Assembly (NCBI GenBank): GCA_000002445.1
Contig: CM000208.1
Coordinates: 1,184,001-1,248,000 of the forward strand
Reading direction: 5' to 3'
Length of the DNA stretch: 64,000 bases
Source: Trypanosoma brucei
Lineage: Eukaryota
Position numbers and translations under genes: made by a program. The notes under the pieces were generated by a model. That model did no database searches, had not been told where the DNA came from, and saw nothing but the letters and a program-made list of their open reading frames with translations. Positions within the stretch are counted from its first letter, which is position 1. Every line of letters starts with the position of its first letter. Below are positions 11,863 to 52,205 of the stretch, in pieces.

Positions 11863-12618
11863 CTATTTACCTTCAAGGAGTAAACGGGGGGCATCTCCGT
11901 ACACCCACCGGTGCTTGTCTTGTGCGTACTCCAGTTCGTCCGACAGGGATTTAAAAACTTTGTTGTAATCTACCGGTTGTTGAGGCCCTCCACCACTCAT
12001 TGAATTCATCATCATAGCGTTCTCGTCTGGGATGCCCCCTTCTCCGAGTAAAAGCTGAAGGACGCTGTTGGAGCCAAACATAATCAGAAAGTACATGCTG
12101 AGTGACGTCACGTAATTACAGTCGAGGTCGTCAATCTCCACGCCACGCTGCATCATCCCTCGGAACCTAGATGCAAGCACGAATGGAAACTTGGCCACGA
12201 CAAAGCCAGAGAAAAAGTAGGAGACGAGCATCATCATTCCCATGCTTGGAAGCATCGACAACACATTCCCTTTCATCATATCGCCCAGAACGGTAGGGTC
12301 ATTCATGATCTCCATAGGGTTTACCTCAATCTTTTTTTTCAAGGGCCCCTCACGCAATGCCTTTACGCGTTGCTGGAAAGCCTCCGACGGTAGTTTCCTT
12401 CCCTCCGAGAGAAGGTGCCGTGCGCAGTTGACCGTATTTGCGCAGCACATGGTCTCCATCTTGGGAGACGCGCTGGTCTTCATCAGAATAGAGGCGTAAT
12501 GCTTTAGGATTCCAACAAAAATAACCAACGCAATAAGGGGGAACAGAACCCAGTCACGGATGCTGGGGTCCAAAAGAATGTTCTGCGTCATTGCGTGTAA
12601 TCTCCTTACCCCTACCAA
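11863..12618 (-). CDS. EMC3: ER membrane protein complex subunit 3 (EMC3/DUF106 family) (251 aa)
   Basis: Collinear with EMC3: N-terminal TM (LLDPSIRDWVLFPLIALVIFVGILKHY), …DPTVLGDMMKGNV…, FSGFVVAKFPFVLASRFRGMMQRGVE, second TM region. Confidence 0.8.
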   Translation of the reverse strand: MVGVRRLHAMTQNILLDPSIRDWVLFPLIALVIFVGILKHYASILMKTSASPKMETMCCANTVNCARHLLSEGRKLPSEAFQQRVKALREGPLKKKIEVNPMEIMNDPTVLGDMMKGNVLSMLPSMGMMMLVSYFFSGFVVAKFPFVLASRFRGMMQRGVEIDDLDCNYVTSLSMYFLIMFGSNSVLQLLLGEGGIPDENAMMMNSMSGGGPQQPVDYNKVFKSLSDELEYAQDKHRWVYGDAPRLLLEGK

Positions 12619-13010
12619 CAGTTTTACTTATATCCCCTCAAATAGTGTAAAGAAATAATACACACACAAACAAGAAATGAAAGGAAAGGAAAACATATAT
12701 ATACATATATATATATATATATATTCACTTTACGTTTTGAATTTCTGCGGCACAGGCGCCAAACAGCACCAGTTATACAGCACAAGAGAACATTATTGAA
12801 TAAACGAGCGGGGGAAAAGAAAAAAAGAAGGGCCAGCAAGGTGAAAACACATAAAGGAACAGACTTATGTTCCACTGGCATATTCTTTAACGGTGCCATT
12901 CTTTTTTTTTTCCTCCAGCTGCTTTTAGAAGGGGGAGGAGTGTATAGTTACCAGGAAAATGAAACATGCTCTCCAGAGAATAAACGCGGTTGCGAGCAAA
13001 TTAGTGCGTG

Positions 13011-14351
13011 CTATTTCTCTGGTGGAGGTATTTTGCCGTCGACATGCGACCGAAAAATGTCTTCGGTAAATTGAAGAATACGTTCGCAGTACTTAAGCGG
13101 AGGTATGGTTGATAGCGTATCCATCCTCCACAAAAATGACTTGAAGAGTTTTGCGAGTTTCTTTTTAAATGTATATGGTGTTAGAACATCAATGACACCG
13201 ATGTAGTACACTTCTTGGTTGTACAAACTGAAAATCCCTTTCGAAAACTTACATTCACCTCCGCACGTCATCGTCCACTCAGGCCTGTTTTCCATCGCAC
13301 CCTCGGGAGGTCCGCAACGGGGATACGGCATGCGCATGCTCCGAAGCCGCTTCGTCGGGTTGGATATCCCCTTTTCCTCGTACGCTACGCCTATGAGAAG
13401 GGAGTAGTCCATCAACCCCACACTTGCAAGAAACTTACAATCGTCCCGAAGGGTAAGAAGAAGTTTCTCCCTTTGCTCCTTATCTAACCAAAAATAGCGT
13501 GTCAGGTCCTTATCCTTCTTCGTCGCAAGTTTGTTTTTATCAGTCGCTTTCGGCATTTCTTTCAGACCAGAGATGCCTGTCCCAGAAGGAAAATATTGCG
13601 TTGTGTCGGTGCCAGGTGTCGTACTTTGACCTGTGGTCGAATCGTATGGGTGCTGAAAAAGCTTTGCAAAGTGCTTGTATTTCCCGGGTTTTGGCCGGCG
13701 GCCCTTTAAATCCCATTTCTCATTTAGCGTGCGGCACGGCGCAAACACATCACCAAAGCAAAGTACGTAGCCTAATTCTCCCCGAAACTCCACACGAAGA
13801 AGCATATAAAATCGCATCAACAGGGTATTAGAATGTTCACGAAAATGTTTCGCGTAACGCGGAAGCAAATGGAGCAACACGTCTACTTCGACCTTTGCAA
13901 TGATTTTACACAACAGGTACTTGGATTTCGACTCGAGAAATAGCGCCATAGAGCGGCCCTCACTGAGCTCGAGGTCCTGTCGCTCATTCGGTAGATCCCA
14001 CTCATCAGCAAATGTCTTCTTGTCAAAGCCGTCAAGTTTCCGCAAAAGGTAAAACACATCGGGGGCGTACTCGTACACATTCATGGGTTCCTTACCATTG
14101 CCATAAGGACACAGAACACTTAGCCGTCGCCCATTACGGCATTTTTCTTCAGTGATATGCTCTAACGCTACCGTATCGCCTTCACGTTTGTTACCTTCCT
14201 GTTCTTTTTCTGCGTCCTCGGTGAGTTTTGAGCGCTCCTCGTGCTCTTCACCCGATGGCTTGCTCGCATACTTAAGGGCAGCGGCGACCTGCCGGCCAGT
14301 GAGTCCCTTGCCACTCGTAGCCGCACCACAAACCGCCTGGCATGAACCCAT
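13011..14351 (-). CDS. Phosphatidylinositol-4-phosphate 5-kinase-like (PIPK) (446 aa)
   Basis: PIPK catalytic blocks (…FYLLRKL…, MDYSLLIGV, YYIGVIDVLTPYTFKKKLAK); N-terminus MGSCQAV fits myristoylation/palmitoylation motif. Confidence 0.8.
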   Translation of the reverse strand: MGSCQAVCGAATSGKGLTGRQVAAALKYASKPSGEEHEERSKLTEDAEKEQEGNKREGDTVALEHITEEKCRNGRRLSVLCPYGNGKEPMNVYEYAPDVFYLLRKLDGFDKKTFADEWDLPNERQDLELSEGRSMALFLESKSKYLLCKIIAKVEVDVLLHLLPRYAKHFREHSNTLLMRFYMLLRVEFRGELGYVLCFGDVFAPCRTLNEKWDLKGRRPKPGKYKHFAKLFQHPYDSTTGQSTTPGTDTTQYFPSGTGISGLKEMPKATDKNKLATKKDKDLTRYFWLDKEQREKLLLTLRDDCKFLASVGLMDYSLLIGVAYEEKGISNPTKRLRSMRMPYPRCGPPEGAMENRPEWTMTCGGECKFSKGIFSLYNQEVYYIGVIDVLTPYTFKKKLAKLFKSFLWRMDTLSTIPPLKYCERILQFTEDIFRSHVDGKIPPPEK

Positions 14352-15706: not shown

Positions 15707-17383
15707 TCAGTAGCCCCCCTGGTCCCCAAATCGCCTCTGAATGTCGCCATTGAACGGGTTCTCAGTAGGTAAGATGCCGAGGTCTTGCATTTTCGCAAAT
15801 ACGCGAGCCCCCATAAGCGCTGTGGCGATTTGAGAAGGATGGAAACCATCAACCGGGTTAACAAGTTTCCATAGGGGGCCTTCGAAACTGCTAACGACTT
15901 CGCCAATAACGTCGCCAAGTGCATGGACTTTAATGTTTTCTAAATCAGTTGATTCATCCACGACGCGTGATATCATTGCATTCATTGCGCTGGCTCGCTC
16001 CCACGTCTCGTTCCGCACCGATTCGTTCGAGTTAAGCCACCCCCAGCAGGGCGAAACCTGCAGACAGTTCAAGTAATCATACAGATTACCGTACGTTACG
16101 TCGCTGTTGAGGGTGCCGATGGGATGGATCCGATTAACGATGCTGCCAATTGCAGCGCGTGCATCCACAAGAGAAACTATAAGAACATGGCTTCCGGGTG
16201 GTAAGAAGGAGTCCGCTTTCTTCACTGCCTCAGAAAGGCTATGGTAGTAATCAAGTGGGGTGGGTGCATCCTGCGGCCGAGGGCACACATCGTTCCCAAC
16301 CATAGAAAAGAAGACATAAGCGGGTTTCACACTCTCGGAACGGTTTCTGGCGACTGAGTCCAAAATAGAAAGAATACTTCCACTCCTAGCACCATTATGT
16401 CCCAGATTTTGATAATCACGGTGATTACATCGATTCAGCTCCACAAGTTTACTGTAAACCGATGCCATCGGCCCATCGACGTCCGGTTCATATCTTGTAG
16501 AGTTGGCGAAACCAGTTAAGCCGGAGAGCATCGGCCAGTCTATCTCATTGTCAAGTACAGGTATTATATTAGCAACCGCCTCTGAGGAAAGATCAAGTAT
16601 CGAAACATATCCTAAGGGAATACCAAAGTCGGCCGTTGCGCTGTCTCCGACCGCAATGACGCCCATGGGAGATGAGTTGCTGCACCACAATTCCTCATAA
16701 GTTTTTTTGCTCGATTCTTCCACGCCGTAGATGCCGTTGCAATTCTCATCCCTCTGGGAGTCAGTACTGTTCCGACCTGGGTACACCCGTGCATCGTCGT
16801 CATCACAATCGCGCCCCCTCCAATCCGTTCCACGTTTCGTTGGGTATGTTGAGAATCGATCCCCATCTTTATCATGTGCGGAATCTTCAAACAAAGGCCG
16901 GCAAAGAGTTGGGAACGTTCGGCAGGCATCCACCAATTTCCTGCCATCCAGGCGGTAAGCACTTCGTAGCTTATGTAAAGGCAAGGTGTCATTTTTGTCA
17001 GGCGGGAAGAGAATGCACTCTTCAGTATCGCAGTACTTCATTATCTGGCAAACTTTATCAGGTGTCCTTCCCTCATCAATCAACTGCAATGCCCCTTCCA
17101 ACAGAATGAGAGAAGCGGTCTTACAAAGGACGGCTTCAGCAGACCTGAAGAAGCTGCAAAAAAGGCCCAGAGCGTCCTTGGCTGGTATTTGATGTAGCTG
17201 ACCCAGTTGAGAGACCGTGGCAACTACGGCAGTACAGAGTACACACCCCCAGGTGTCTGAAGAACCCAGTGACTTGCTCTCCCTCGCTTCGGCTTTCGCA
17301 GTGTGGATGGACGGGCACACAACGGTTAGTTGCAGAAGCGCTGTGAACAAAAGCAGTTTGTAAAATATATAGAGTCGACTCAT
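15707..17383 (-). CDS. Secreted saposin-like + GDSL lipase/acylhydrolase (acyloxyacyl-hydrolase-like architecture) (558 aa)
   Basis: Hydrophobic signal peptide; saposin-B-like Cys pattern (CVLCTAV…FCSFF…LCK…CQIMKYC); GDSL block I (VIAVGDSATADFGIP) and block V (DGFHPSQ). Confidence 0.7.
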   Translation of the reverse strand: MSRLYIFYKLLLFTALLQLTVVCPSIHTAKAEARESKSLGSSDTWGCVLCTAVVATVSQLGQLHQIPAKDALGLFCSFFRSAEAVLCKTASLILLEGALQLIDEGRTPDKVCQIMKYCDTEECILFPPDKNDTLPLHKLRSAYRLDGRKLVDACRTFPTLCRPLFEDSAHDKDGDRFSTYPTKRGTDWRGRDCDDDDARVYPGRNSTDSQRDENCNGIYGVEESSKKTYEELWCSNSSPMGVIAVGDSATADFGIPLGYVSILDLSSEAVANIIPVLDNEIDWPMLSGLTGFANSTRYEPDVDGPMASVYSKLVELNRCNHRDYQNLGHNGARSGSILSILDSVARNRSESVKPAYVFFSMVGNDVCPRPQDAPTPLDYYHSLSEAVKKADSFLPPGSHVLIVSLVDARAAIGSIVNRIHPIGTLNSDVTYGNLYDYLNCLQVSPCWGWLNSNESVRNETWERASAMNAMISRVVDESTDLENIKVHALGDVIGEVVSSFEGPLWKLVNPVDGFHPSQIATALMGARVFAKMQDLGILPTENPFNGDIQRRFGDQGGY

Positions 17384-20084: not shown

Positions 20085-21830
20085 CTACGCAGAAGAACAT
20101 TGACTTGTATCCAATAACTGATACGGATCGTACCAAATCGGAACCGACACACCCCCGAGGTCCACACCCGCAGCTTTACGAAGAGCCTTACGCCACTCCG
20201 CCTGACCGTCCTCGCAATACTTCGCCTTGCGGTCCATGAAGTTGTTTACGTCCCCCTCCGCTTCAGGATCCGGTAGCGTAAGAAACTCCGTAGGAAGCCG
20301 CCTGCAGCGGGAATTGGAAACACAGAGCTGGGGCTTGACCGAGTGTCCATCGCTGGAAGCTACTTTTTGCTCGAGCCCCTCGCGGCCCGTTGGCGGACGC
20401 TTCACACGGGCAGGTTGCTCTAGATCCCGATGCGAAGGCATGAGCACGTACCGAGCTTCGAGCTCCCTCACTAAGTTTGTCCACTTCTCACGCTCTCCCT
20501 TTGGAATTACTTCGATGTTCCGAAGCCAGTCCAGGTTCCGCCGGCCTCGGCCGTTCAGGTCACGCAGCCATGACTGGCGACTCTCGGTACCCCATGACAT
20601 AAGTCGCATCCGGAGCAGCTTCTCCACAAGACCAAAAAGAAATTTAAATTGGCATCCCCACTTGGGTTCACCCACGAAACGTCGCAGGACAGCTATTCCA
20701 CCGTTACCTTCAAACGAACGTTGAATGCTCTCGTCAGATTCCACAATGATGTCCGTTAAACTTTCTGCCTGCTCGGCGGAGTCACATACCTGACATAGAC
20801 GAACAAAAGTCAGTACCATGTTTGATCTATCCTCTCCCAATCCCCTCGCTGAAGGGCTCCCCATGATTTGTGTCAATTTTTCCCTCCAGCGTGTTCGTCT
20901 AGGTGAAAAGTCGTCTACCTGTTTTGCCATAGCGGGTACGACAGGGTGTTCCATGTTTATCCTCTGCTGGATTCTAGTGGCTGGTGGATAACACATGCTA
21001 CTGGCGTGTGAGTTCGAGCAGGAAGGAGTGGAATCCGTAACCCCTCCCATGCTCTCGCCTCTGGATGTACCGTCCGTGTTAGCGAGTACGGTAACCTCCG
21101 TTGTTTTCATACTTAGCCACGATCCACTCCGGAGGTAGTTTTCTACACCTTGGCGCCTGTGGGAAGCGGATGGGAAGCGCACATTCGACGCCATGCTAAG
21201 GTTTTGGTATCGTGTCCCCCCTTTCCGCCAGTCAAGGAACTTTGTATGATATGTTTGCTCCGAAAAGACACCCCCAGGTATACCCGATTCGGAGATTAGG
21301 AAATAAATAAACTGTTTGACCACCTCGTCCCACTTGGGGCGGTTTTCTTCAGATATGACATCGTAGAGTAACTTTAACATGTCGCAGCTAGTCGCGTAAG
21401 AGATCGCCAGTCCGCTCTTGTTTCCCCATGTATACCGGGGTTTTTTTACACCATTCTTCACCGCCTGAACAGCCTGCTTTTCATACTCCAAACGTACCTG
21501 TTGAAGGAACATCTCAACAGCCACTCGAAAATAGTCAACAACTCTGTAATGGCCGTCTGGAAAACTATCATAGTTGGAAGCAACATACCGGACTACGTTA
21601 CGCGCAGAAGGGGAAACATGAATAACACTATCGTCGGGTTTTAGGAACTGTAGATTTGGGTTTCGCTTAACATTGCGGAACACTGGGTCATGACCGGAAA
21701 CTGAGGAAGTTTCACCAGAGAAAACGCTCGTTGCACCCTCTGATATCTGTCTGCTAGTGCGGGAACCGACTGAGCTTGGCGCGCTACTCAGAGAACTCTT
21801 ATATGAAGTGTCATACCCCGACGAACCCAT
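20085..21830 (-). CDS. Hypothetical protein (~581 aa from MGSSGYD… at 21830; ORF track over-extends to 22052 into a repeat element)
   Basis: Long ORF in array orientation; polypyrimidine tract + AG on coding strand just upstream of Met 21830; no family recognised. Confidence 0.5.
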   Translation of the reverse strand: MGSSGYDTSYKSSLSSAPSSVGSRTSRQISEGATSVFSGETSSVSGHDPVFRNVKRNPNLQFLKPDDSVIHVSPSARNVVRYVASNYDSFPDGHYRVVDYFRVAVEMFLQQVRLEYEKQAVQAVKNGVKKPRYTWGNKSGLAISYATSCDMLKLLYDVISEENRPKWDEVVKQFIYFLISESGIPGGVFSEQTYHTKFLDWRKGGTRYQNLSMASNVRFPSASHRRQGVENYLRSGSWLSMKTTEVTVLANTDGTSRGESMGGVTDSTPSCSNSHASSMCYPPATRIQQRINMEHPVVPAMAKQVDDFSPRRTRWREKLTQIMGSPSARGLGEDRSNMVLTFVRLCQVCDSAEQAESLTDIIVESDESIQRSFEGNGGIAVLRRFVGEPKWGCQFKFLFGLVEKLLRMRLMSWGTESRQSWLRDLNGRGRRNLDWLRNIEVIPKGEREKWTNLVRELEARYVLMPSHRDLEQPARVKRPPTGREGLEQKVASSDGHSVKPQLCVSNSRCRRLPTEFLTLPDPEAEGDVNNFMDRKAKYCEDGQAEWRKALRKAAGVDLGGVSVPIWYDPYQLLDTSQCSSA

Positions 21831-21865
21831 GTTAAGCGCTCTAACACACCTACAACAAAAAAGAG

Positions 21866-22268
21866 AAAGGAAAAAAGAGATTACGTATATCCGACGGGGC
21901 AACAACAGCAAAGTATAACAGATGCAACACAACACACGAGGCACATGCCGAGGTTGAGGTGCCGATACCCAAGGAGGTAATATTAAAATAATGTAACACA
22001 TAAACTTCTGCACGTGAACTTCCCGAACAAACACAAACACACAAACACACACAGAAGATAATCAGACAGCTCTTATTTCCCTCACACATTTGAGTTCACA
22101 CTACTCTATAACATGGAACGGAACAAAGTGGAACTTCAGCACGCAGAGAATACAAGAAAAACAAATTACCACTGGAGGTGTGTATAAAACAAAAATAAAC
22201 GTCCGCCAGAGAGAGAGAGATAGAGGGAAAGAGGCGATGTATCTGAAAATAATACCACTTCCGCGTAG
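21866..22268. repeat. ~400-bp dispersed repeat, copy A (inverted relative to copy B at 59993-60395; ~97 % identity)
   Basis: Direct alignment of A with the reverse complement of 59993-60395 shows only a few substitutions and microsatellite length differences; homology ends abruptly at both edges. Confidence 0.9.
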
Positions 22269-38585: not shown

Positions 38586-40700
38586 TTACCTTGTAAAGAA
38601 AATGTCGTGCAAAATCTCCTTCCTCTCCTGGATAACCAAGTCACGACACATATCATTAACAGCAAGCGAAATCCCGAACGTCGTCGCACTGACAGGCCAC
38701 CTCCGTGGCATGCAGCGGCGGAAAGAAGCATAGAATCCAGGTTTTAGACACACACTCTTAGCGTCGACTACGCCAGAAGACGTGAGTTGCTCCACCTGTC
38801 CACGTCGCCTTCCGACATTAATGAAATAGGTAGTGACATGACCGACGAAAGAGGCGAGCACGCCAGCAAAAAGTCGCTGACCGAACGAAGTGCAGTGACA
38901 GTGTTCCTTGAGGAATTCGTAGGTCGCAAAACCGACGCCCCCAACAGGCCCTACACCCATAGCCGCAAAGGTACTCCACTCGCGAAATGATCGCGGAGAT
39001 TGCGCTTTTGCTATATCGTGAAGTAGCCAATAATGTGAATGAAAGTGACGTGGAGTCGTGTGTTTCACTGCTCGGGCGCCCACATGCGCGATAGGGTACA
39101 GCAGAGCCGTTGCCGCCGCCGTCGCCACAGCGCCTGCAACAAAGTTTGTAGCCGGCGTTGGCGTTAGAGAAAATAACAGCCGCTCTGAAGCTGTCTGGCA
39201 TATGTCAAACAGTGAGTAAGTGAGGGCACCATACGAAATAACTCGCATCATTGTGACGTCACCACCGTGGGCTGCAACACCTCTCCAGCAGAGCAAACCA
39301 CTCGACAGGGGACCGTGCCGGCCGGTTGTACGTGAATATAAACGGCCCAAACACACTTGAAACAAGATTTTAAGTTGAAGAAGTGCAGCTGTACATGTTT
39401 GGGCCACACACGCGGCCATCATTCCGCAAACAAGCCCCTCTGGAAGAGACACCAAGTTTCCCCGACGGGAGTATTTCACTACCTCCTCATCGTACTCGCG
39501 CATGCGCCGCTTAACGATATCATTGACAGTAAAAACAGTGCTAACGGCTATGGGGCCTTTAATCCAGTTCATGGAAAGGCCTTTATACCAACCCTGAAGG
39601 AAGCCTTCCTCCTTGTAAATCACACGAAGTGCATGGAAAACACCGCGGTAACGACCTGGCGTCACTTGCATGCGGCGCCGAACAATGTCCAGAGGGTAGG
39701 TAGCGGACTGAGCAACAAGTCCAGCAAAACCACCAGCCACAATCCTCTCATGCACAGAAATGGACTTCTCGGACGAAAGCTCACGCCATCGAACAATATA
39801 GCTCTTCAGAGTCTCGAAGACAGCAAAACTACACCCTGCATAGGGCATAATGCCAATAACAGTAGGAACTAGTCCAGAATATAGCGACCTCCAGCCGTGA
39901 TCGGCCACCAGTGACCTGTAAGCCCGGCAGTAGCTGGGGATCACCCCCTTGTCGAAATTGTGAACAGCAAGTCGCGCCCTCATGAGGTCCAGAGGGTAGG
40001 TGCACGCCGTTGCCGTAGCACCCGAAAGTGAGCCACTCAGGAACCGTATGATAACCATTGTGCCCTCATTCTTTGAAGTACTTGTCCGATCGGCGATCAG
40101 TAAATACTGAAACCCCTCACGATAGTAATCAAACGTTACAAATGTCACGGCGGCATATGGCACAACTCGTATCATCGTTGCGCCATTACCTATCCACAAT
40201 CCAGCTATACCGTGCTTCCTCACTGTTGCCATACCCAGCTTACATGCATTGTAAAGTGAGAAGCGCCGCTGGGAGTCTACTTGGAAGATTATCTTAACCT
40301 TGTCAGCGGGTGCAATTACCGTTTTGCTAACGGCACCAGCGATCCCACCAGCGGCAAACCCTTCTAGGAAACGTACAACTCCCTGGACGACTCGAGCAGC
40401 AGAACTCGGTTCTTCAGTAGCGGAGAACTCGCCGTAATATTGAAATCTTTCGAAGTCGATCTCATATTGTCCTAAGGAGGTAAACCGTTTGTGATGCTCT
40501 TCGCAGAAACGACTCCACTGTGCCTCCGAGAGTCCTCCTTTTCCTTCGTGATCGAAGCACTGTACAAGCTCTCGAATATGTTCAGGCGGAAGGAAAATCA
40601 GTGGGGCCACCTTCTTCACTATGACGTCAGTTGGAATGTACGGTACTCCCGTCGTGGAAGAAGTTGTAGACCGACCTGCATCAACGTCCTTGGCCAGCAT
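38586..40700 (-). CDS. Mitochondrial carrier family protein with second, degenerate carrier-like module (704 aa)
   Basis: N-terminal ~60 aa EF-hand-like; residues ~100-400 hold three carrier repeats with P-x-D-x-x-[KR] motifs (PADKVKI, PLDLMRARL, PLDIVRRRM); residues ~420-704 form further TM helix pairs without canonical motifs. Confidence 0.7.
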   Translation of the reverse strand: MLAKDVDAGRSTTSSTTGVPYIPTDVIVKKVAPLIFLPPEHIRELVQCFDHEGKGGLSEAQWSRFCEEHHKRFTSLGQYEIDFERFQYYGEFSATEEPSSAARVVQGVVRFLEGFAAGGIAGAVSKTVIAPADKVKIIFQVDSQRRFSLYNACKLGMATVRKHGIAGLWIGNGATMIRVVPYAAVTFVTFDYYREGFQYLLIADRTSTSKNEGTMVIIRFLSGSLSGATATACTYPLDLMRARLAVHNFDKGVIPSYCRAYRSLVADHGWRSLYSGLVPTVIGIMPYAGCSFAVFETLKSYIVRWRELSSEKSISVHERIVAGGFAGLVAQSATYPLDIVRRRMQVTPGRYRGVFHALRVIYKEEGFLQGWYKGLSMNWIKGPIAVSTVFTVNDIVKRRMREYDEEVVKYSRRGNLVSLPEGLVCGMMAACVAQTCTAALLQLKILFQVCLGRLYSRTTGRHGPLSSGLLCWRGVAAHGGDVTMMRVISYGALTYSLFDICQTASERLLFSLTPTPATNFVAGAVATAAATALLYPIAHVGARAVKHTTPRHFHSHYWLLHDIAKAQSPRSFREWSTFAAMGVGPVGGVGFATYEFLKEHCHCTSFGQRLFAGVLASFVGHVTTYFINVGRRRGQVEQLTSSGVVDAKSVCLKPGFYASFRRCMPRRWPVSATTFGISLAVNDMCRDLVIQERKEILHDIFFTR

Positions 40701-43968: not shown

Positions 43969-45282
43969 TTAATCATCATCTGAAAAATTCTGCAGCTCGT
44001 GGAACCTACCTAGTGCCCTTGACCAAGTTGTGGACTGATTTCTATCGCAAAGTTTTGACGTAAAGCCAACAAAAACAGACTGATCTTCCCTCGACACCGC
44101 AGTCATCGGCTGCTTTTGGATGTCTGCATTGTCGGGTGCAGGCTCAAAATATTGCAAGTCTCTCGGGCTATTCAGCTCCACAGAAAAAGGGGCCTTCTCA
44201 TTTCGGATACTGTCGGTCAGAGGGACACCCTTACAGAATGGGTGGCGGATTATTTCCTCAAACCCGTATCGCTCTTTTGAATCGGCAATAAGGTGAGAAA
44301 TCAAATCAATTGCTTCCTTTGACACCGTCGTTTGATCCTTCGGAAACTCCAAGTGCTCTTTGAACTGTATTATCTTCTTAGCGGTTGCGGTGTTATTATC
44401 GTTGAAAAATGGAGGATATCCAAATATCATTTCATATAGAATAACACCAGCGCTCCACCAGTCACAGGAATAGTCATATCCCCTTCCAATTAGAACCTCA
44501 GGTGCAATGTAGGCGGGTGAGCCGACAGTAGAAAAGAACATGACCTTTCTTTCCTTTTTATCCCTGAAGCGTTTCTTTACGTCATCATCAACGGTTACAT
44601 CCTCCGTTAAATAGCTATCGTCGGCTACGGATGTACTTTCAGCCTGATCCGGATCTCTCTTAGACAACCCAAAATCTGCTAATTTAACATGGCCCTCCCG
44701 ATCAATAAGGACATTATCCGGCTTCACATCCCTGTGAACATAGCCCATCTTGTGCAGCGCATTCAGTGCTAAAACCAACTCAACGAAATAAAATCTTGCC
44801 GTTTCTTCCGGGAAGACATCGTAACGGATGAGCCAAGAAATAAGATCCCCTCCGGAGCAGTACTCTGTTACTATATAAAGGAAGTCTTGATCTTGGAATG
44901 CTACCACCAAATCCGTAATCCATGGACAACTTACTCGCTTCTGCCGTAGTTTTGCGTCAGAAAGAAGATCTCTCTCTGTGTGTACATTAAGTGATTGCTT
45001 CCTTTTCACAATTAGATCCTTTCGTATCTTTTTCATGGCATAGACAATGTGAGGTTCTTCCGGTCTCCAACACTGAAACACCTCCGCGAATGCACCCCTC
45101 CCAATTGCGTCCCCAACACAGAACTCGTTCACTGTGTGCTTCTTCTGTCTACCTCGGGAATGTTCAATAGCAAAACTTTTCTTGTCCCCCACCATTCCTT
45201 TAACGTAGTACTCACCTGTATACTTTTTGGCAACGGCAACCTTTGCGTCAGTGCCAACTTGAGATTTAGGCACATCTGACAT
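43969..45282 (-). CDS. NDR/LATS-family AGC protein kinase (PK50/PK53-like) (~438 aa from MSDVPKS… at 45282)
   Basis: Kinase subdomains (GRGAFAEV, YAMKKI, HRDVKPDNVLI, DFGLSK, …GSPAYIAPEV) with long DFG–APE insertion typical of NDR kinases; ORF track over-extends 5' by 33 codons. Confidence 0.85.
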   Translation of the reverse strand: MSDVPKSQVGTDAKVAVAKKYTGEYYVKGMVGDKKSFAIEHSRGRQKKHTVNEFCVGDAIGRGAFAEVFQCWRPEEPHIVYAMKKIRKDLIVKRKQSLNVHTERDLLSDAKLRQKRVSCPWITDLVVAFQDQDFLYIVTEYCSGGDLISWLIRYDVFPEETARFYFVELVLALNALHKMGYVHRDVKPDNVLIDREGHVKLADFGLSKRDPDQAESTSVADDSYLTEDVTVDDDVKKRFRDKKERKVMFFSTVGSPAYIAPEVLIGRGYDYSCDWWSAGVILYEMIFGYPPFFNDNNTATAKKIIQFKEHLEFPKDQTTVSKEAIDLISHLIADSKERYGFEEIIRHPFCKGVPLTDSIRNEKAPFSVELNSPRDLQYFEPAPDNADIQKQPMTAVSREDQSVFVGFTSKLCDRNQSTTWSRALGRFHELQNFSDDD

Positions 45283-45536
45283 CTTGCCTGTTTTTTCTCC
45301 CCCACCAAAGAGCTTGAGGCTCAAAACAGTAGTAACAGTACAAGGCGAATAGAAAAGATGTTCAATAATTAGCAAACACATATCAACTCACGGCTATGTG
45401 CATGCACATACGCTCAAAAATTTTAAAAATCCGATGGGTCATTTTTTAGTCGCACACAGTAAATAAAATAATAGCAGAGGAGAGCGAGGAAGTGAGTCAA
45501 AAAGATTAGATGGAACACAACATCGGAGACAAACAT

Positions 45537-45980
45537 TCATAGGAGTAGCTTTTTCTTTCGATGCTCTAGTTTTGTAGGCTTCATACGTGTTCTTTTTGGC
45601 CATTTATTCTCGCCGCCCTTCGAGGCTTTTAAGCTGCTTTTCAACTGTTTTTGGATAGACAAATTCTTCCAGTCCAGGAACGGTGCCCTCTTCAGATCCG
45701 ATGGAAGGTGCACAAGTCGTACACTTGATCCCTTTAAGAAAACACGACCCTCTACAGAAAGCGAAGAGTCTCGGTGCTGGCACCGCACATCAATAAGTTC
45801 TATGTCCCCACATATTGCATCAAGTTGCATCAGCTTGCCATCATAAACACTGCCATCAGTAGTTTCCACCTTGACGAGGAATCCGGTCGCCTCACAAATG
45901 GCACGTAAGGGAATATCAGCTACACCTTCCATATCCCTAATAACGACTACCTCAACGATCAACTTGCCTATTTCTCCCAC
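45537..45980 (-). CDS. Sm-like (SmD3-type fold) protein with basic C-terminal tail (147 aa)
   Basis: Sm1/Sm2 motifs (…FLVKVETTDGSVYDGKLMQLDAICGDIELIDV…RVFLKGSSVRLVHLPSDL) aligning best with SmD3; first gene of the minus-strand array. Confidence 0.6.
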   Translation of the reverse strand: MGEIGKLIVEVVVIRDMEGVADIPLRAICEATGFLVKVETTDGSVYDGKLMQLDAICGDIELIDVRCQHRDSSLSVEGRVFLKGSSVRLVHLPSDLKRAPFLDWKNLSIQKQLKSSLKASKGGENKWPKRTRMKPTKLEHRKKKLLL

Positions 45981-48900
45981 AATTTTGACAATTTGAAAAA
46001 AGTGCTAGTGGCGACCAAATCATGCAAAAAATCGACTTTCTTTACGTCTTATTACAAATTAATGCACTCACACACGGTGCTCCCGAACACAAAAAAGTTC
46101 AGGGCAAGCCAGAGAGGGAAAAGAGGCGTACGAAAACCACCAAGTGCTATGAAACATAGATGCCAAAAACAAAACCCTATCGCACAACACCACCTTCGTG
46201 GAGTGTCATCGCGGTCCACGCGAGTCCGGGGCCTCCGTGTCGCGCTGCGAGCAGCAACGACATATGGGTGAAGTATGCCCACGCACAATCGTCCTGAAGA
46301 ATAAAGAAAAACTGCTCCATAAGCCTGTTTACAGACACACTTCACAAAGACATAAACAGTAGGATGTCACTGGAATCAACAGACAACTAGGAACAAGGTT
46401 GCAAAAAAAAAGTCCATTTGATTGCTTCTCACATCAAACATTACATACATACACATGCTATACCGCTCTATACCACCTTACGAATCAACATATGGGTGGA
46501 ACCCCCGCACAAAGCGCGTCCTGCACAACAAATCCCCACGACCAATAGCAACCAGAAAATGAGCAAAAGCGGTTACGGCGGCGCCCGCCGCGATGTGCTG
46601 GAAACAGAAGTAAAAGAAAGATGGAGAAAATTCCACAACAACGATCTCCCACATCGGGACGCTGCTCCGCGCTGCAGCATAAGAAAGGGGCTCCTCTCAA
46701 TTTCCATGCTCACACGAGGGGCTGCTAATGACGGGAAGGCTACGAAGATGGTGAAGTAGCCACAGGGGTCCCCCGTCCGCTTCGGATCCGACGATCGTCT
46801 GTCGTACCCCATCGCCTGTGAACAAAATGTCCCAAACCGAAGAAACCCCAGCTCTCTCCGGCGCTCTAGCCCCAGCCTCGCTACGGTTTTTTGGCCCGCG
46901 CCACCGGCAACCACCAGCAAAGAACGGGGAGGAGCACACCCACGAACTCTGGTGCCCCAAGGCACCGAAGCGTAGTGCGACAAACCGTTAGGAAAGAGTT
47001 GTCACGGACAAAAACGAAAAGAAGAGGAGAAAACCCATGGGGTGCCACTCACACCCATACCGCTAACGCCTGGCACCCGCTTAGGTGAATCAGAGGCAAA
47101 GAACCACCTCTCCACCCGTACCTGAAACCCTTGAAGCAACCACTGCCACTTCGGCCTCTGCAGCGATATCCTCGAGCGCTTTGTTTACATGGGACAGACC
47201 GCTGAGCGTAGGTAGGGAGTAAAGTGACTCAATCACAGTGCTTTTGAGCCTGCCGCAAAAGCGCAGATTTTTCACTTTCTTCAAAAGACACCACGGCCAG
47301 CGGTGCCGGCCACCGACCCACTACAAGCATAGTGGTTGCTAAACATGGGGTGGTTTTGCCACCACCGCCACCATACGGATCGGTAACTAGTTCCCGCCGG
47401 CCGCTACTTGTGGCAGTAGCCAGTTGACGGGGATAGGGCGGTAGTGATGTATGTTGACCTTTTGCCACGGCTCGATCCTCCGTCCCACCGATGCGCCGGC
47501 ACCTCCATCAGTACGCTGAACGCGGAGCACTACAAGCTGCGTTAACAACCGGATGAGTTTCCCATTTCGGAAAGTAAGATTTCGCCGATCGGAAGGTTGA
47601 TCATCCCCTTGGTTTTTGCGACTTAATGAGCATGTTGGACGCTCACGATTTGGAAGTCAGTTGTGGGTGCTGCAGCGGAGGCCCTGGAGGGACACGAAAT
47701 CGCGCATTGCATTTCGATAAACGCAGTGCACCATTATAAAAGCGATTATTCACGTTCGGTGGGGAGTCTTCATCACACTTTACTGTGCCGCAAATGATGC
47801 ACCACGGTAAATTCGGGGCGAAATCAAAAGGTACCAGCATACGGTTCCACTGAAGATACAATCCTGAGACTGTAGTATTCAGGAGGGACCCAGCAATATT
47901 TGCAGTGAGAGAAGAACTGACCTATTGGCCCACCGAGACGTCCACCAACACGATTCTGTCCTCCTCATGCGTTACCATGTGAATGCGCGCACTTCCCTCC
48001 CCCCATACACACACCACCCCAGAACTGATGCATGTCTGGTATATCTCGAACAACTTTACACCCCGCTAACGCGTGGCTCCGTTCAACTTCTTTGAAGTGT
48101 GATTTTGCGAAGGCACCCCCACCCCTAATCCAAACTACAACTTTTTACAATCATCTCTCGGTGTCTAAAAGCTCGTTATTCGCTGCAAAGCGTTGGTTAA
48201 GCACAAAATTGTATACGCCTACGGACTACATAGTACCCGAGTTCAAAGAGAACCATCGACAGCTACCGCAGCGTTCCCACTATTCAGCACAACGGGGCAC
48301 TTCCGAAGTACTGTAGGTAACGGCCGATAGTCTGTGGAATTATACACTTTACACAAACAGGGCATATAATTATGCGGTGATTTCCCTAGTGTTCGATGCT
48401 ATTCAAGATGTGAGAATGCATTTCCTACGGTGACTAAAAGTGTGTTATATCGACATAGTTTTCCCCCGCACATACTAATAATATACTATGCGGTGTTATG
48501 TGCACAATATGGGAGGTGTGGCTACTGTATATGTTATTTGTTAACTCTTCCTTCGGATGAAACACTACAGTGTCACACCTCTCCTTCTCACATCATATGT
48601 ATGTGCTTCACCTCACATTATTACTCCATACCATCGTGTTCTAATGGGAAAAATAATGCGGAATGATAGATTAGGTGAAAAAAGAAAAGATCAGAAAGGC
48701 ATGACTATCTCTCTCTATGGTGTGTGGTATACGCTGTTGATGCTTTGAAAGTTCTGCATCATCACGTGATATCGTATATCCACATGCTGTGTGCATGTAT
48801 TCGTGTGATGCATGCTTGGAACAATGGAGAGTGTGACCATGTCAGTTTGTGTTCACCACCGTGCTCTTCATCTGTAGGAGTAGGTAAAACTAACAACAGA

Positions 48901-51566
48901 TCATCAATATTTCAACGAAGGGAAGACAGGGTCGGTTTTAATATGCGGCCGCCGAGTATCGGAGCAACGGTGGAGCCCCAACGTATCCGTAGTGTTCAAC
49001 CCCCTCCGTTGCGGTCTCCGCGTCCCCGCTCCTCATTGTTCGGCCGCTTTTGAAGACGCCACGTTGAGACTGGAACCTGTGTCTTGCCGCTTTTGCTGGA
49101 AAGAGGAAGGAAGATCACTGTGGCCACTAACAGTGGAGGGTCGGGTGTCGTGAGATGTGTCTATCTTCCGTTGGGGTTTTCTTCTTGGGAAAGCGGTTTA
49201 CCTTAGTGGGCGGCGGTAACCTGTTCTATTTGGAAGGATGTCGTGCAGGGGGTGAGTGAGTTTTCTTGACCAAGTTTACGAATTTGTTGTGCACCCCTGT
49301 TTTATCCCACTGCTTGAAGTGTTTCGGAATAGATGATAGGGAGGATGGTATGGCAAGAAACCTGCCGGGACCTTTACCGTTTCACCGCTGACTACATGTT
49401 CCCACAATTTTCTACCATATCCTTCGGGCGGCATTGCAGTGAGAGTGCCATGTGGGACAGGGGACAGATTGGAACTTGATCTTCCGGAGGTCTTCGGAGT
49501 TATAGAGTGATTGCTTCTCTTCTCCTTTCCTTTGGCGTGACTCTCATACGGAGGCTCTTGGTGAGCAGGATACAATTCGCCTGCTGACTTTTTGGTTTAT
49601 TTTTTCCCATATTTCAGTGTTGCGGGGTCACTTTCGGCACCGTTGGGAATCGAGAAGTGACGTATAAAGGTGTTCGCTTCTGCAGCAAAAAGTGGTTCCG
49701 TTTGGTATTCATTTGTGGAGACACTTTCCCTCCTTTCCATTTCGGAAAACTTTTTGTCACGGAAGAAGGGCTTTTGGTATTGTCCCGTCCGATGATCTTT
49801 GCCCCGATCGTTCCATCATGAATAATAGCTACAACTGTGTGTGTCTGTACGGCTGTGGATATTTCCCCAGTCCCCAATCGCTTCGGTCGCTTTTACTCTT
49901 TTATAGCACGGTTTAGAGTTGGTAAACTGGTGCCGTTCTGTGGAAGCAGTGGCCGGAGGAAAGTGTGGGGTGAAGTCGTTAGCTCGTTTGAGTTGACGCA
50001 GGCCTTGGAGAATGTCATGTGGTGACCTCCGTGGGCTGTGGCCGTGTCGCCAATTTGTGGCGGCGCAGTCCTTTGATGTGACTGAATCGGGTGCATAACT
50101 TGTTCTCCGGCCATGCTCACGGTTTTTTTTGTTTTCGCTGCCGCTTCAGCCGTCTTCTCCCCAGCAGATTATGAAATATGGTCCGGCGCGTGGGGGAAAT
50201 GAGTTGGTTCCACCCAAGAACGTTGGAGCCAGAGGCCTATGCTGCCTTTTCCCGTGTGTATTTGTGAAGGGGGGGGGGACGAGGCTCAGAGGAGCGGCAT
50301 GTCCATTTTTTGTGAATCCTCTTTGTCCACTGGGGAAGGAGATTGAAGTCAGGGTTGCCTGGGGGGATGACTCAATGCGCGCCGTCGGATGAGCAAACTT
50401 ATGTTTAGCGGCCCTTGTGGTGATTGCGTCAACCGGTGGGTCGACGGTAGTGGTGAGCTCAACTTCTGTTTTTGAGTTGCCGGAGCTCCGCCGCTGTGCC
50501 GGCAAAGGGGAAGGTTGGTACTGGTTAGCCCTCAGGGTACAGAGTTTGGTCTCAAATACACTGAAGGCGCCCCCTACTCGGCAGCCGCGCCTCTGAGCGC
50601 TGTTCGCCCGGATGAGTTGGTTCGTAGATGCTGCACTGGGCGCTGTGTAAAGCTCGTGGGGGGTTGGAATGGATGTGATAATCGCGTAGCAGTTTAGTGA
50701 GGATGGCGTCGACGGCGACGCCCTTTCGCATCCCTGAAGTCTTTAATATGTCTGTTCTTGTTCGACGAGGGGTTTGCTGCGGATCCCACCAAGAGTTGGT
50801 CTCGCAGTATTTTGGCCGCGGCTCTGCCCACGCTGGGTGAATTGCGCTTTGCCTGGTTTCCCCCGCCAGAGCGGGGTACAGTGGCCGGGCTGCGCGTGTG
50901 GGGTGCCGTCATTGCTGAGTGTGTCGGTGTTGTGCCCGCCCCGTTCCTGTTGCGTTAAGCAGGATTGGGCCCGGTGGGGGTTTGGTGACTCCAACCGAAG
51001 CGTCGGCATGTGGATGCGCCCCATCGTTTCTGGTGGCTGACATGTTTGGTTTCGTCGTATTGGGCCCAGGGTTATAGTGGGCGACAGGGTCTGGCTTGCG
51101 TAACCCGTCGCTTTTTCTTGTTGGCAGTTGGTGCCTTTTATTCGACGGTGGTGGCGTTTTCTGGAAATCGGTCCCCGTTCTGGGGTTCTGTCGTTGAAGG
51201 ACTCCTTGTACTTACCATATTATGATATGCATTTTGTTTGCCACCGTATGGCTTCGTTTTCTGTTTGCGTCCCTAACAGAGCAGGTGGTATCGTGGATAC
51301 CGGCGGTGCGAGGGGTTGTGCATGTTATGGCGGGCTTTGCACGACGAGCCTTGAATCCACCTTTTTTAATTATTTCAGTTCGGATTGCAGGTGATGTGCT
51401 TGCCCACACCCTGCAATTTGTTTAAAGTTTAATGGCAGTGCCGATGCCATTTTTGTCTTGGCGTATGCTAGGCGCGTGAGTTGTAGATGTCTAAGAAAAT
51501 AGTGTTGATATAGCCCTCTGTTTTTTGTTTAAGTGGTGATGTTATTGTTTTTCTTTAATCTTCCTG
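45981..51566. promoter_or_regulatory. Divergent strand-switch region (candidate bidirectional RNA pol II transcription start region), no convincing CDS
   Basis: Flanked by first gene of minus array (…45980) and first gene of plus array (51567…); only short unrecognisable ORFs; 46.0-47.5 kb C+A-rich on plus strand, 49.0-51.5 kb G+T-rich with G-runs (G10 at ~50270). Confidence 0.6.
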
Positions 51567-52205
51567 GTGTTGTTTAGTGCAAAGCTAGGTGCAATGGAGG
51601 ATATGGGCGACTTGGCGAAGGGCAACTTGGCTTCGTCCAAGTGGCTTGGCACTTTCAGCCTCCTTTATGCCGAAGTGGTTGTTTCGTTTGCGAGTGCCAT
51701 AGTTCTACTTGTTTTGACTGTTGTCCAGTTACTTTATCGAACCAGCTGGCGGGCCAGGAAGTTATGGAGAGTAGGAAACGAGGTGCGCTTCGATGGGGAG
51801 CGTTACCTCGCGAAACCGGAGGGCGACATTGGTCGGAAAATTTTGGAAAGGGGCATAAAATCGCATGAAAATGTTTACTTTGAGCGTCCCTCAGGCACAC
51901 TTCCCCCAATTGTAGCGAATGACTGTGACGCTAGGGTAAATTGTCTCTCTATGATTGCGGAGACAAGGAAGATACTCTACAAGCAGTACGGGGAACCGGC
52001 GCGTTTAATGTCTATGCGTTGTTGTTTGTCGTGTATAGAAAATGTTTTGCCGTCGAGCCAAGCGGAGGATTTCCTTCGCATATATGAGTCTGTCCTTTAC
52101 GGGCAGTATCGCGCGGATGGGGTTCCGGAGGTGATTTCTGACGAAGAGATAAAGTTTTTGCACGTTTTTTACCACAATTCAATTCTCAAAGAGATTCAAT
52201 GGTAG
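51567..52205 (+). CDS. Hypothetical membrane protein (212 aa)
   Basis: First ORF of plus-strand array; one predicted TM helix (FSLLYAEVVVSFASAIVLLVLTVVQLL); no family recognised. Confidence 0.4.
   Translation: MLFSAKLGAMEDMGDLAKGNLASSKWLGTFSLLYAEVVVSFASAIVLLVLTVVQLLYRTSWRARKLWRVGNEVRFDGERYLAKPEGDIGRKILERGIKSHENVYFERPSGTLPPIVANDCDARVNCLSMIAETRKILYKQYGEPARLMSMRCCLSCIENVLPSSQAEDFLRIYESVLYGQYRADGVPEVISDEEIKFLHVFYHNSILKEIQW

What the first reader, a model, noticed from the sequence alone, without database searches (positions are those of the whole stretch)
15707..17383. Secreted saposin-like + GDSL lipase: acyloxyacyl-hydrolase (AOAH)-type architecture in a kinetoplastid
The protein has a signal peptide, a saposin-B-type six-cysteine module, and a GDSL/SGNH hydrolase domain (block I GDSATADFG, block V DGFHP). 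AOAH, the lipid A secondary-acyl-chain deacylase of animals and some amoebozoans, is the only well-characterised family with this combination. A protist parasite carrying such a secreted lipase suggests lipid remodelling or detoxification of bacterial lipopolysaccharide in the insect-gut or host environment, or a secreted phospholipase role.
Basis: partly seen in the sequence, partly recalled or inferred. Interest (0 to 1): 0.55.

Follow-up and report, generated by a model that had tools for sequence, protein, structure and literature searches.

The report
Known trypanosome GPI inositol deacylase gene
This ORF is the already characterised Trypanosoma brucei gene GPIdeAc (Tb927.10.4780), a true relative of the animal LPS-detoxifying lipase AOAH that the parasite is reported to use to strip a fatty acid from the inositol of its GPI membrane anchors, so the finding is correct but not new.

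Summary
Window 15707..17383 (-) encodes a 558-aa protein with an N-terminal signal-like segment, a six-cysteine saposin-like domain, an acidic metal-binding-type stretch and a GDSL/SGNH lipase domain.

It is a full-length homologue of acyloxyacyl hydrolase. phmmer against AOAH structure 5w7d gives E = 4.5e-102. The AlphaFold model matches murine AOAH at TM 0.85-0.90, while generic GDSL esterases reach only E ~1e-4. Ser248, Gly331, Asn364, Asp512 and His515 are invariant in 55 family members.

The protein is 100% identical to T. b. brucei TREU927 XP_822725.1/Q38BC3, "GPI inositol deacylase precursor" (GPIdeAc, Tb927.10.4780). Güther et al. cloned it in 2001 (EMBO J 20:4923). Reviews list it with GPIdeAc2 (a PGAP1 homologue) as the two reported T. 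brucei GPI inositol deacylases.

It is far more abundant in bloodstream forms (>30-fold protein), which argues against the proposed insect-gut LPS role. The family call is right. The functional guess is only loosely right ("lipid remodelling").

Verdict: already known, low interest. Side observation: AOAH-family genes turned up in prokaryote-labelled assemblies (a Spirochaetia MAG and Ca. Uabimicrobium).

The parts
15707..17383 (-). Complete coding sequence of GPIdeAc (Tb927.10.4780), 558 aa plus stop codon at 15707-15709
   Evidence: ORF. Identical over 558/558 residues to XP_822725.1 / Q38BC3_TRYB2 'GPI inositol deacylase precursor'. Gene ID.
17291..17383 (-). Residues 1-31, putative cleavable signal peptide (MSRLYIFYKLLLFTALLQLTVVCPSIHTAKA)
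   Evidence: It holds the only strongly hydrophobic N-terminal segment (Kyte-Doolittle 19-residue window >1.6, centred on residues 13-19). The cleavage site after AKA is my reading of the (-3,-1) rule, not a predictor result. The AF2 model has low confidence for residues 22-40.
16991..17260 (-). Residues 42-131, saposin-like domain (equivalent to the AOAH small subunit), six cysteines C47 C50 C76 C87 C112 C118, plus invariant C123
   Evidence: Pfam PF20825 E 1.3e-6, above its cut-off. Matches AOAH small-subunit chains 5w7a_A and 5w78_A. Cysteines conserved. All-helical in the model, H42-114.
16883..16990 (-). Residues 132-167, linker between the saposin and lipase parts. It corresponds to the region where mammalian AOAH is proteolytically processed, and is shorter in the Trypanosoma clade.
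   Evidence: Alignment blocks. pLDDT is 68-71 for residues 151-170. Whether it is cleaved in T. brucei was not testable.
16724..16882 (-). Residues 168-220, acidic Asp-rich stretch at the start of the lipase part (DKDGD...GRDCDDDD...DENCNG), probable calcium-binding region
   Evidence: D171, D173, D175, D192, D212, C193 and C215 are invariant in 55 homologues. Sub-threshold Pfam 'putative metal-binding motif' PF11617 at 192-218. Calcium binding in AOAH is from my memory of the AOAH structure paper, which the library does not hold.
15803..16660 (-). Residues 242-527, GDSL/SGNH hydrolase domain
   Evidence: Pfam Lipase_GDSL E 6.2e-7. Aligns to AOAH large-subunit chains at E 2.2e-97. Model matches at TMt 0.89-0.91.
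16640..16642 (-). Codon of Ser248, the catalytic nucleophile in block I (GDS)
   Evidence: Invariant. Aligns with the position mutated to Ala in the S262A murine AOAH crystal constructs, GDAAG versus GDSAT. Coordinates verified.
16388..16402 (-). Block II GHNGA (residues 328-332), containing the oxyanion-hole Gly331
   Evidence: G331 invariant, N330 >=90% conserved. Coordinates.
16286..16297 (-). Block III GNDV (residues 363-366), containing the oxyanion-hole Asn364
   Evidence: G363, N364 and V366 invariant. Coordinates.
15836..15850 (-). Block V DGFHP (residues 512-516), containing catalytic Asp512 and His515
   Evidence: D512, G513, F514 and H515 invariant. Coordinates.

Best explanation
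**Identity.** This is the Trypanosoma brucei gene GPIdeAc (Tb927.10.4780, chromosome 10).

**What it encodes.** A soluble secretory-pathway protein of the acyloxyacyl hydrolase (AOAH) family. Its parts, in order, are a signal peptide, a saposin-like lipid-binding domain, an acidic (probably calcium-binding) segment and an SGNH serine esterase domain.

**Mechanism (inferred from the family and the conserved residues).**
- Ser248 attacks the ester carbonyl.
- His515 and Asp512 act as base and acid.
- The backbone NH of Ser248 and Gly331, plus the Asn364 side chain, form the oxyanion hole.
- The saposin domain packs against the lipase and helps engage or extract a membrane glycolipid.

**Substrate (reported in the literature, not tested here).** The fatty acid esterified to the myo-inositol ring of glycosylphosphatidylinositol intermediates.
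- Deacylation is needed to complete fatty-acid (myristate) remodelling of the VSG anchor precursor.
- GPIdeAc supplies part of that DFP-sensitive deacylase activity, alongside the unrelated PGAP1-type enzyme GPIdeAc2.

**Analogy.** The trypanosome removes an 'extra' acyl chain from a glucosamine-containing phosphoglycolipid, as AOAH does on lipid A, but the substrate is its own GPI.
For: **Identity**
- 558/558 residues identical to XP_822725.1/Q38BC3 'GPI inositol deacylase precursor [T. b. brucei TREU927]'.
- Same 90% cluster as CAC50079.1 'GPI inositol deacylase [T. b. brucei]', with 5 differences.
- Gene ID Tb927.10.4780 = GPIdeAc.

**Family**
- phmmer to AOAH 5w7d: E 4.5e-102 over residues 43-558.
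- AF2 model: pLDDT 90.5, pTM 0.87.
- Foldseek top 11 hits are all AOAH, E down to 1.4e-45, TMq 0.85 / TMt 0.90. The next family is at E 2.6e-4 with TM <0.3.

**Active site**
- S248, G331, N364, D512 and H515 are invariant in 55 homologues.

**Function from the literature**
- A 2025 review states that GPIdeAc and GPIdeAc2 (PGAP1 homologue) are the two reported T. brucei GPI inositol deacylases, and that deacylation is essential for fatty-acid remodelling in bloodstream forms.
- The inositol deacylase is DFP-sensitive, as expected for a serine hydrolase.
- The primary paper exists: Güther, Leal, Morrice, Cross, Ferguson 2001, EMBO J 20:4923.

**Stage expression fits a bloodstream-form GPI role**
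- Protein >30-fold higher in bloodstream forms.
- Translational efficiency rank 390 in bloodstream forms versus 5994 in procyclic forms.
- mRNA 2.6-fold higher.

**From my memory of the 2001 abstract, not verifiable here**
- The enzyme was purified by [3H]DFP labelling.
- HA-tagged protein had inositol deacylase activity.
- The authors themselves pointed out the AOAH similarity (signal peptide + saposin + GDSL).
Against: - I could not read the primary papers. Güther 2001, Güther 2003 and Hong 2006 are not held. The biochemical details therefore rest on secondary citations and memory.
- From memory, GPIdeAc null mutants are viable and keep a normal VSG anchor and residual deacylase activity. 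If so, this enzyme is not the sole, and perhaps not the principal, biosynthetic deacylase.
- No ER-retention motif (KDEL/HDEL/MDDL) and no transmembrane or GPI-signal segment is present. How a soluble protein would stay with ER GPI intermediates is unexplained by the sequence.
- Orthologues exist in Trypanosoma species (T. cruzi, T. theileri, T. rangeli) for which the acylation/deacylation cycle is described as controversial.
- T. brucei alone has Asp at the otherwise >=90% conserved His252, next to the nucleophile. The significance is unknown.
Confidence: 0.88

Rival explanations
1. First reader's reading. It is a secreted AOAH-type enzyme whose job is to deacylate bacterial lipopolysaccharide (or act as a secreted phospholipase) in the tsetse gut or host environment.
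For: - True AOAH homology over both domains, with intact catalytic and acidic (calcium-type) residues.
- No obvious retention signal, so secretion or lysosomal delivery is possible.
- AOAH itself has broad phospholipase, lysophospholipase and acyltransferase activities (reference title).
Against: - Expression is strongly biased to mammalian bloodstream forms rather than the insect procyclic stage, where gut bacteria would be met.
- The literature assigns it GPI inositol deacylase activity.
- None of my literature searches found a paper linking this gene to LPS.
Confidence: 0.04
2. It can deacylate GPI in vitro, but its main physiological role is different. It would be a broad-specificity lipid esterase of the secretory or endolysosomal system, for example catabolising surplus GPI precursors or other (lyso)phospholipids. 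GPIdeAc2 (PGAP1-type) would then be the true biosynthetic inositol deacylase.
For: - Two deacylases are reported, and only GPIdeAc2 belongs to the universal PGAP1/Bst1 family.
- The title of Güther et al. [quoted passage not shown]
- The AOAH family is known for broad substrate range.
- No ER-retention motif.
- From memory: the null mutant is viable with unchanged VSG anchors, and GPIdeAc2 knock-down gives the stronger phenotype (cites the PGAP1 knock-down phenotype).
Against: - The enzyme was (from memory) purified as the DFP-labelled inositol deacylase activity itself.
- Total deacylase activity fell in the null mutant.
- Strong bloodstream-form up-regulation parallels the stage in which inositol deacylation of precursors is required.
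Confidence: 0.15
3. It is a generic GDSL esterase with a fortuitous cysteine-rich N-terminus, not an AOAH relative.
For: The Pfam domain scores for this protein are modest on their own (30.2 and 28.9 bits), and SapB_1/SapB_2 do not hit.
Against: - Full-length E 4.5e-102 to AOAH.
- There is a 40-order-of-magnitude gap to any other GDSL structure.
- The saposin region independently matches AOAH small-subunit chains.
- Cysteines are conserved.
Confidence: 0.005

Closest known systems
Trypanosoma brucei GPIdeAc (Tb927.10.4780; XP_822725.1 / Q38BC3; original deposit CAC50079.1; Güther et al. 2001 EMBO J 20:4923)
   Same: It is this gene. It is 100% identical to the TREU927 reference protein.
   Different: Nothing. 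The strain-427-type cDNA deposit differs at 5 of 558 residues: T182A, A307T, A469S, D480N, I484V.
Mammalian acyloxyacyl hydrolase, AOAH (PDB 5w78, 5w7a-f)
   Same: - Same domain order: signal peptide, saposin-like domain, acidic metal-binding-type stretch, SGNH lipase.
- 33-40% identity.
- Same catalytic Ser/Asp/His and oxyanion Gly/Asn.
- Conserved cysteines, including C123.
- Same conserved C-terminus FGDQGG(Y/H).
- Same predicted fold, TM 0.85-0.90.
   Different: - Reported substrate is the parasite's own inositol-acylated GPI rather than the acyloxyacyl-linked chains of lipid A. Neither activity was tested here.
- The inter-domain linker is shorter.
- There is a 4-5 residue deletion after block III (CPRPQ versus CNGHxDTxxH).
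- T. brucei has Asp252 instead of the conserved His.
- Proteolytic processing into two subunits is unknown for the trypanosome protein.
PGAP1 / Bst1 / T. brucei GPIdeAc2 (Tb927.3.2610), the canonical eukaryotic GPI inositol deacylase
   Same: Same reported reaction (removal of the inositol-linked acyl chain from GPI) and both are serine hydrolases.
   Different: - Unrelated family and architecture. PGAP1 is a multi-pass ER membrane alpha/beta-hydrolase-type lipase.
- The window protein has no PGAP1 Pfam hit and only an N-terminal hydrophobic segment.
- This is a functional analogue, not a homologue.
Generic bacterial, fungal and plant GDSL/SGNH esterases (e.g. ChoE 6uqv, Iah1 3mil, Vibrio thermolabile hemolysin 8h0c)
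   Same: Core SGNH fold and the four conserved blocks.
   Different: - Only distant: Foldseek E 1e-4 to 1e-2, TM 0.25-0.30, 10-15% identity.
- They lack the saposin domain and the acidic N-terminal stretch.

Membership tests
Acyloxyacyl hydrolase (AOAH) family | Full-length sequence homology to AOAH covering both small (saposin) and large (lipase) parts | tested here: met
   phmmer E 4.5e-102, query residues 43-558 versus chain residues 24-562 of 5w7d. Small-subunit chains are matched separately at E 4.1e-6.
Acyloxyacyl hydrolase (AOAH) family | N-terminal saposin-like domain with the six-cysteine pattern | tested here: met
   PF20825 at 28.9 bits versus cut-off 27. C76, C87, C112 and C118 are invariant, and C47 and C50 are conserved in >=90% of sequences. 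The region is helical in the model. SapB_1/SapB_2 profiles did not hit this protein.
Acyloxyacyl hydrolase (AOAH) family | SGNH catalytic set: Ser (GDS), Gly, Asn, and Asp-x-x-His | tested here: met
   S248, G331, N364, D512 and H515 are invariant across 55 homologues. S248 aligns with the S262A position of the crystal constructs.
Acyloxyacyl hydrolase (AOAH) family | Acidic (calcium-binding) segment at the N-terminus of the lipase part | tested here: met
   Residues are conserved at sequence level: D171, D173, D175, D192 and D212 invariant, D195 and D208 >=90%. There is a sub-threshold PF11617 hit. Actual Ca2+ binding is not testable with these tools.
Acyloxyacyl hydrolase (AOAH) family | AOAH three-dimensional fold with the saposin domain packed on the lipase | tested here: met
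   Model pLDDT 90.5. Foldseek to 5w7e/5w7f/5w7d: E ~1e-45, TMq 0.83-0.85, TMt 0.88-0.90 over 535-543 columns.
Acyloxyacyl hydrolase (AOAH) family | Proteolytic processing into disulfide-linked small and large subunits | not testable with these tools
   C123 and the lipase-domain cysteines are invariant, and the linker is lower-confidence and shorter. Cleavage needs protein chemistry.
Acyloxyacyl hydrolase (AOAH) family | Enzymatic removal of secondary (acyloxyacyl) chains from lipid A | not testable with these tools
   I found no report that this protein acts on LPS. So it is a sequence and structure member of the family, not a demonstrated acyloxyacyl hydrolase.
T. brucei GPIdeAc (the characterised gene) | Sequence identity to the reference GPIdeAc protein | tested here: met
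   Exact match to XP_822725.1 / EAN77897.1 / Q38BC3. 553/558 identical to CAC50079.1.
T. brucei GPIdeAc (the characterised gene) | GPI inositol deacylase activity, DFP-sensitive | not testable with these tools
   Reported in the literature. The primary paper was not readable here. A GDS serine nucleophile is consistent with DFP sensitivity (inference).
PGAP1/Bst1-type GPI inositol deacylases | PGAP1-like lipase domain and multi-pass membrane topology | tested here: not met
   No PGAP1 family among the Pfam hits at E<=1. The only non-signal hydrophobic peak lies inside a saposin helix. The protein works like PGAP1 but is not a member.

The most novel reading that the evidence does not exclude
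GPIdeAc may still be a working AOAH-type enzyme with a second or ancestral substrate, such as bacterial LPS/lipid A, host oxidised phospholipids or lysophospholipids met in the endocytic pathway of bloodstream forms. In that reading, GPI inositol deacylation is only part of its physiology.

The observations that leave this open:
- It is a strictly conserved AOAH orthologue in every Trypanosoma species sampled.
- It is not seen in Leishmaniinae or Bodo among the top 120 hits. This is weak negative evidence only.
- It is reportedly dispensable for VSG anchor structure (from memory).

The T. brucei-specific His252Asp change next to the nucleophile might mark a specificity shift.
Probability: 0.12. 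Interest if true: 0.4.

Novelty: already known. Interest (0 to 1): 0.08.

Why it matters
As a discovery it does not matter. The gene, its activity and (from my memory of the 2001 abstract) its resemblance to AOAH were published in 2001, and it is annotated as such in every T. brucei genome record.

It remains a tidy textbook case of enzyme recruitment. A saposin-plus-SGNH lipase that animals use to strip acyl chains from bacterial lipid A has been put to work by a parasite on its own glucosamine-containing glycolipid, the GPI anchor precursor that underlies the VSG coat.

The residual open questions are modest:
- What each of the two unrelated inositol deacylases really does in vivo.
- Whether GPIdeAc keeps AOAH-like activities.
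- How a soluble protein without a retention signal acts on ER lipids.

Tried and rejected
1. **Primary papers.** I tried to read Güther et al. 2001 by DOI and PMC id, Hong & Kinoshita 2009 and the AOAH structure paper. None is held. Statements about their content are marked as memory.
2. **Literature linking AOAH and this gene.** Searches for 'acyloxyacyl hydrolase' + 'trypanosoma', + 'inositol deacylase' and 'saposin' + 'brucei' + 'deacylase' found nothing relevant in the open-access library. The three hits were coincidental.
3. **Genomic context as a functional clue.** Rejected. The neighbours are RNase HII, EMC3, PIP5K, a Dus, a DnaJ-TPR protein, a mitochondrial carrier, PP2C and kinases. 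They are unrelated, and trypanosome polycistronic units are not operons (established knowledge).
4. **First tree attempt.** It timed out. I redid it with a fast Kimura-distance NJ. Bootstrap values were computed but not printed, so only the topology is used, and only loosely.
5. **Alignment A1** was built from a reference that dropped Met1 instead of the stop codon. I discarded it for numbering and replaced it with A2.
6. **Model coordinates** are not exposed to scripts. Catalytic-triad distances and disulfide pairings could not be measured.
7. **tRNA scan of the window** was empty.
Full report
**1. Observation**

- GDSATADFG is at residues 246-254 and DGFHP at 512-516.
- Pfam gives Lipase_GDSL (E 6.2e-7, residues 242-527) and the saposin-like domain PF20825 (E 1.3e-6, residues 47-131). 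Both are above their curated cut-offs.
- Pfam also gives a sub-threshold metal-binding motif at 192-218.
- The classical SapB_1/SapB_2 profiles did not hit this protein.
- The N-terminus has the only strongly hydrophobic segment apart from one saposin helix. There is no KDEL-type motif, C-terminal hydrophobic tail or further transmembrane segment. This fits a cleavable signal peptide and a soluble lumenal or secreted protein.
- Upstream of the ATG lies a long polypyrimidine tract followed by AG dinucleotides. This is the usual trypanosome trans-splice acceptor context (direct reading).

**2. What it is**

*Sequence and fold.*
- phmmer against all PDB chains gives a single family. The match to acyloxyacyl hydrolase has E 4.5e-102 over residues 43-558 of the query and 24-562 of murine AOAH.
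- There are separate matches to the isolated large (E ~1e-97) and small (E 4e-6) subunits.
- An AlphaFold2 model built on a 55-sequence alignment is confident (pLDDT 90.5, pTM 0.87).
- Foldseek against the PDB returns AOAH chains as the top eleven hits (E down to 1.4e-45, TMq 0.85, TMt 0.90).
- The next family, ordinary bacterial and yeast GDSL esterases, starts at E 2.6e-4 with TM below 0.3.
The protein is an AOAH-family member, not a generic GDSL esterase.

*Conserved residues (alignment A2).*
- The SGNH catalytic set S248, G331, N364, D512 and H515 is invariant.
- So are twelve cysteines and the acidic residues D171, D173, D175, D192 and D212.
- Ser248 aligns with the residue mutated in the S262A crystal constructs.

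*Identity.*
- The large protein search shows the best hit at 99% identity in T. b. gambiense, named 'GPI inositol deacylase precursor'. Orthologues are present in T. congolense (64%), T. conorhini, T. cruzi (53%), T. theileri, T. melophagium, T. vivax and T. rangeli.
- An exact-sequence look-up shows the window protein is identical to XP_822725.1 / Q38BC3 of T. b. brucei TREU927.
- It clusters with CAC50079.1, 'GPI inositol deacylase [T. b. brucei]', from which it differs at five residues.
- Papers give the gene ID as Tb927.10.4780 (formerly Tb10.70.2420), symbol GPIdeAc.
- The window is therefore part of T. brucei chromosome 10.

**3. What is known about it**

[quoted passage not shown] The library does not hold it.
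- From my memory of its abstract:
  - The enzyme was labelled with [3H]DFP, purified and sequenced.
  - The authors noted its similarity to mammalian AOAH (signal sequence, saposin domain, GDSL lipase domain).
  - HA-tagged protein had inositol deacylase activity.
  - Null mutants were viable with reduced but not abolished activity and normal VSG anchors, implying a second enzyme.
- Readable sources agree with the outline:
  - A 2025 review lists GPIdeAc and GPIdeAc2 (a PGAP1 homologue) as the two reported T. brucei GPI inositol deacylases. [quoted passage not shown]
  - The inositol deacylase is DFP-sensitive, and GPI intermediates are in dynamic equilibrium between acylated and non-acylated states.
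- Expression data:
  - Protein is >30-fold higher in bloodstream than in procyclic forms, with only 3.5-fold more mRNA.
  - It is one of the most translationally up-regulated genes in bloodstream forms.
  - mRNA is 2.6-fold up.

**4. Mechanism**

*Shown here.* An intact SGNH active site, an AOAH-like fold with a saposin domain, and conserved acidic and cysteine residues.

*Inferred from the SGNH and AOAH families.*
- Ser248 is the nucleophile and His515/Asp512 the charge relay.
- Gly331 and Asn364 form the oxyanion hole.
- The saposin domain helps the enzyme address a lipid embedded in a membrane.

*Taken from the literature.* The physiological ester is the fatty acid on the inositol of GPI intermediates.

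*The analogy.* The parallel with AOAH is chemical as well as structural. Both remove an additional acyl chain from a glucosamine-containing phosphoglycolipid.

**5. Rivals**

- *Insect-gut LPS detoxification.* This is disfavoured by the bloodstream-stage expression and by the assigned activity. I give it about 4%.
- *Broader lipid catabolic role.* This is more serious. GPIdeAc's main in vivo role may be broader lipid or surplus-GPI catabolism, with GPIdeAc2 doing the biosynthetic step. It fits the redundancy, the 2003 title, the missing retention signal and the broad specificity of AOAH. I give it about 15%.
- *Generic esterase.* Refuted.

**6. Differences from AOAH seen here**

- The Trypanosoma clade has a shorter saposin-lipase linker.
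- It has a 4-5 residue deletion just after block III (CPRPQ versus CNGHxDTxxH).
- T. brucei alone replaces the >=90% conserved His four residues after the nucleophile with Asp (GDSATADF versus GDSAxAHF).
- Their functional meaning is unknown.

**7. Phylogenetic placement**

- In a distance tree the Trypanosoma sequences form one clade.
- That clade sits next to a group of protist and environmental sequences, including a ciliate-labelled transcriptome. It is separate from the metazoan AOAH clade (support values were not recovered, so this is indicative only).
- All listed homologues share the saposin + GDSL architecture. The family is much wider in eukaryotes than 'animals and some amoebozoans'.
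- No Leishmania, Crithidia or Bodo protein appears among the 120 best hits, all with E < 1e-84. This hints at absence outside Trypanosoma but is not a test.

**8. Context**

- The gene sits in a long minus-strand polycistronic unit among unrelated housekeeping genes (RNase HII, EMC3, PIP5K, Dus, DnaJ-TPR, mitochondrial carrier, PP2C, kinases).
- A divergent strand-switch region lies at about 45.4-51.6 kb.
- Context carries no functional information in trypanosomes.

**9. Verdict**

- The proposed biology is mostly not what the enzyme is known for.
- The whole thing has been in the literature since 2001.
- Novelty: already known. Interest: low.

Noticed in passing
L001:2806-4662 (+) (OZ253446.1, 'MAG: Spirochaetia bacterium', 2.34 Mb chromosome); also L002: This is a full-length AOAH-type protein (618 aa) in a record labelled bacterial. 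It carries Pfam Saposin 4.5e-25, SapB_2 4e-12 and Lipase_GDSL 3e-13, and is 38% identical to GPIdeAc over residues 47-558. The flanking DNA is poorly coding with the standard bacterial code (coding fraction 0.37) but 0.83 if TGA is read as sense. So the organism is either TGA-recoded or mislabelled. The AOAH ORF itself has no in-frame TGA.
   Followed up: partly
L003:2929-4233 (+) (Candidatus Uabimicrobium amorphum complete chromosome); L004, L005 (other Uabimicrobium / Planctomycetota): This is a 434-aa homologue of the AOAH large subunit (acidic stretch + GDSL, no saposin), 32-34% identical to residues 167-558. It sits next to the DnaG primase gene, so the context is genuinely bacterial. Uabimicrobium is, from memory, a bacterium that engulfs other bacteria, and an AOAH-like lipid A deacylase there would make biological sense.
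   Followed up: partly
window 16628-16630 (-), residue 252: T. brucei (all subspecies in the cluster) has Asp at a position that is His in >=90% of 55 AOAH-family sequences, including T. congolense, T. vivax and T. cruzi (GDSATADF versus GDSAxAHF). It lies four residues after the catalytic serine.
   Followed up: partly
window ~45400-51550: About 6 kb has no ORF of 150 aa or more. It lies between the last minus-strand gene (kinase, 43969-45381) and the first plus-strand ORF (51567-52205). The sign of the GC skew flips near 48 kb. This looks like a divergent strand-switch region, i.e. a probable RNA polymerase II transcription start region. No tRNA genes are present.
   Followed up: no
window 20085-22052 (-): This 655-aa ORF has a weak, sub-threshold hit to the DNA-binding domain of the base-J-binding protein JBP1 (PF18526, E 4.9e-4, 20.5 bits vs cut-off 25). 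It may be a JBP-related base-J reader.
   Followed up: no
window 38586-40700 (-): This 704-aa ORF has four matched mitochondrial-carrier stretches (PF00153, E 2.5e-77), the best of them at residues 314-402. That is about twice the length of an ordinary carrier, so it has a large extra N-terminal region of unidentified nature.
   Followed up: no
window 11863-14351 (-): The two genes immediately downstream of GPIdeAc on the same strand encode an ER membrane complex subunit (EMC3/TMCO1, E 1.2e-49) and a phosphatidylinositol-4-phosphate 5-kinase (E 4.4e-55). Both are membrane or inositol-lipid related. This is most likely coincidence, given trypanosome gene organisation.
   Followed up: no
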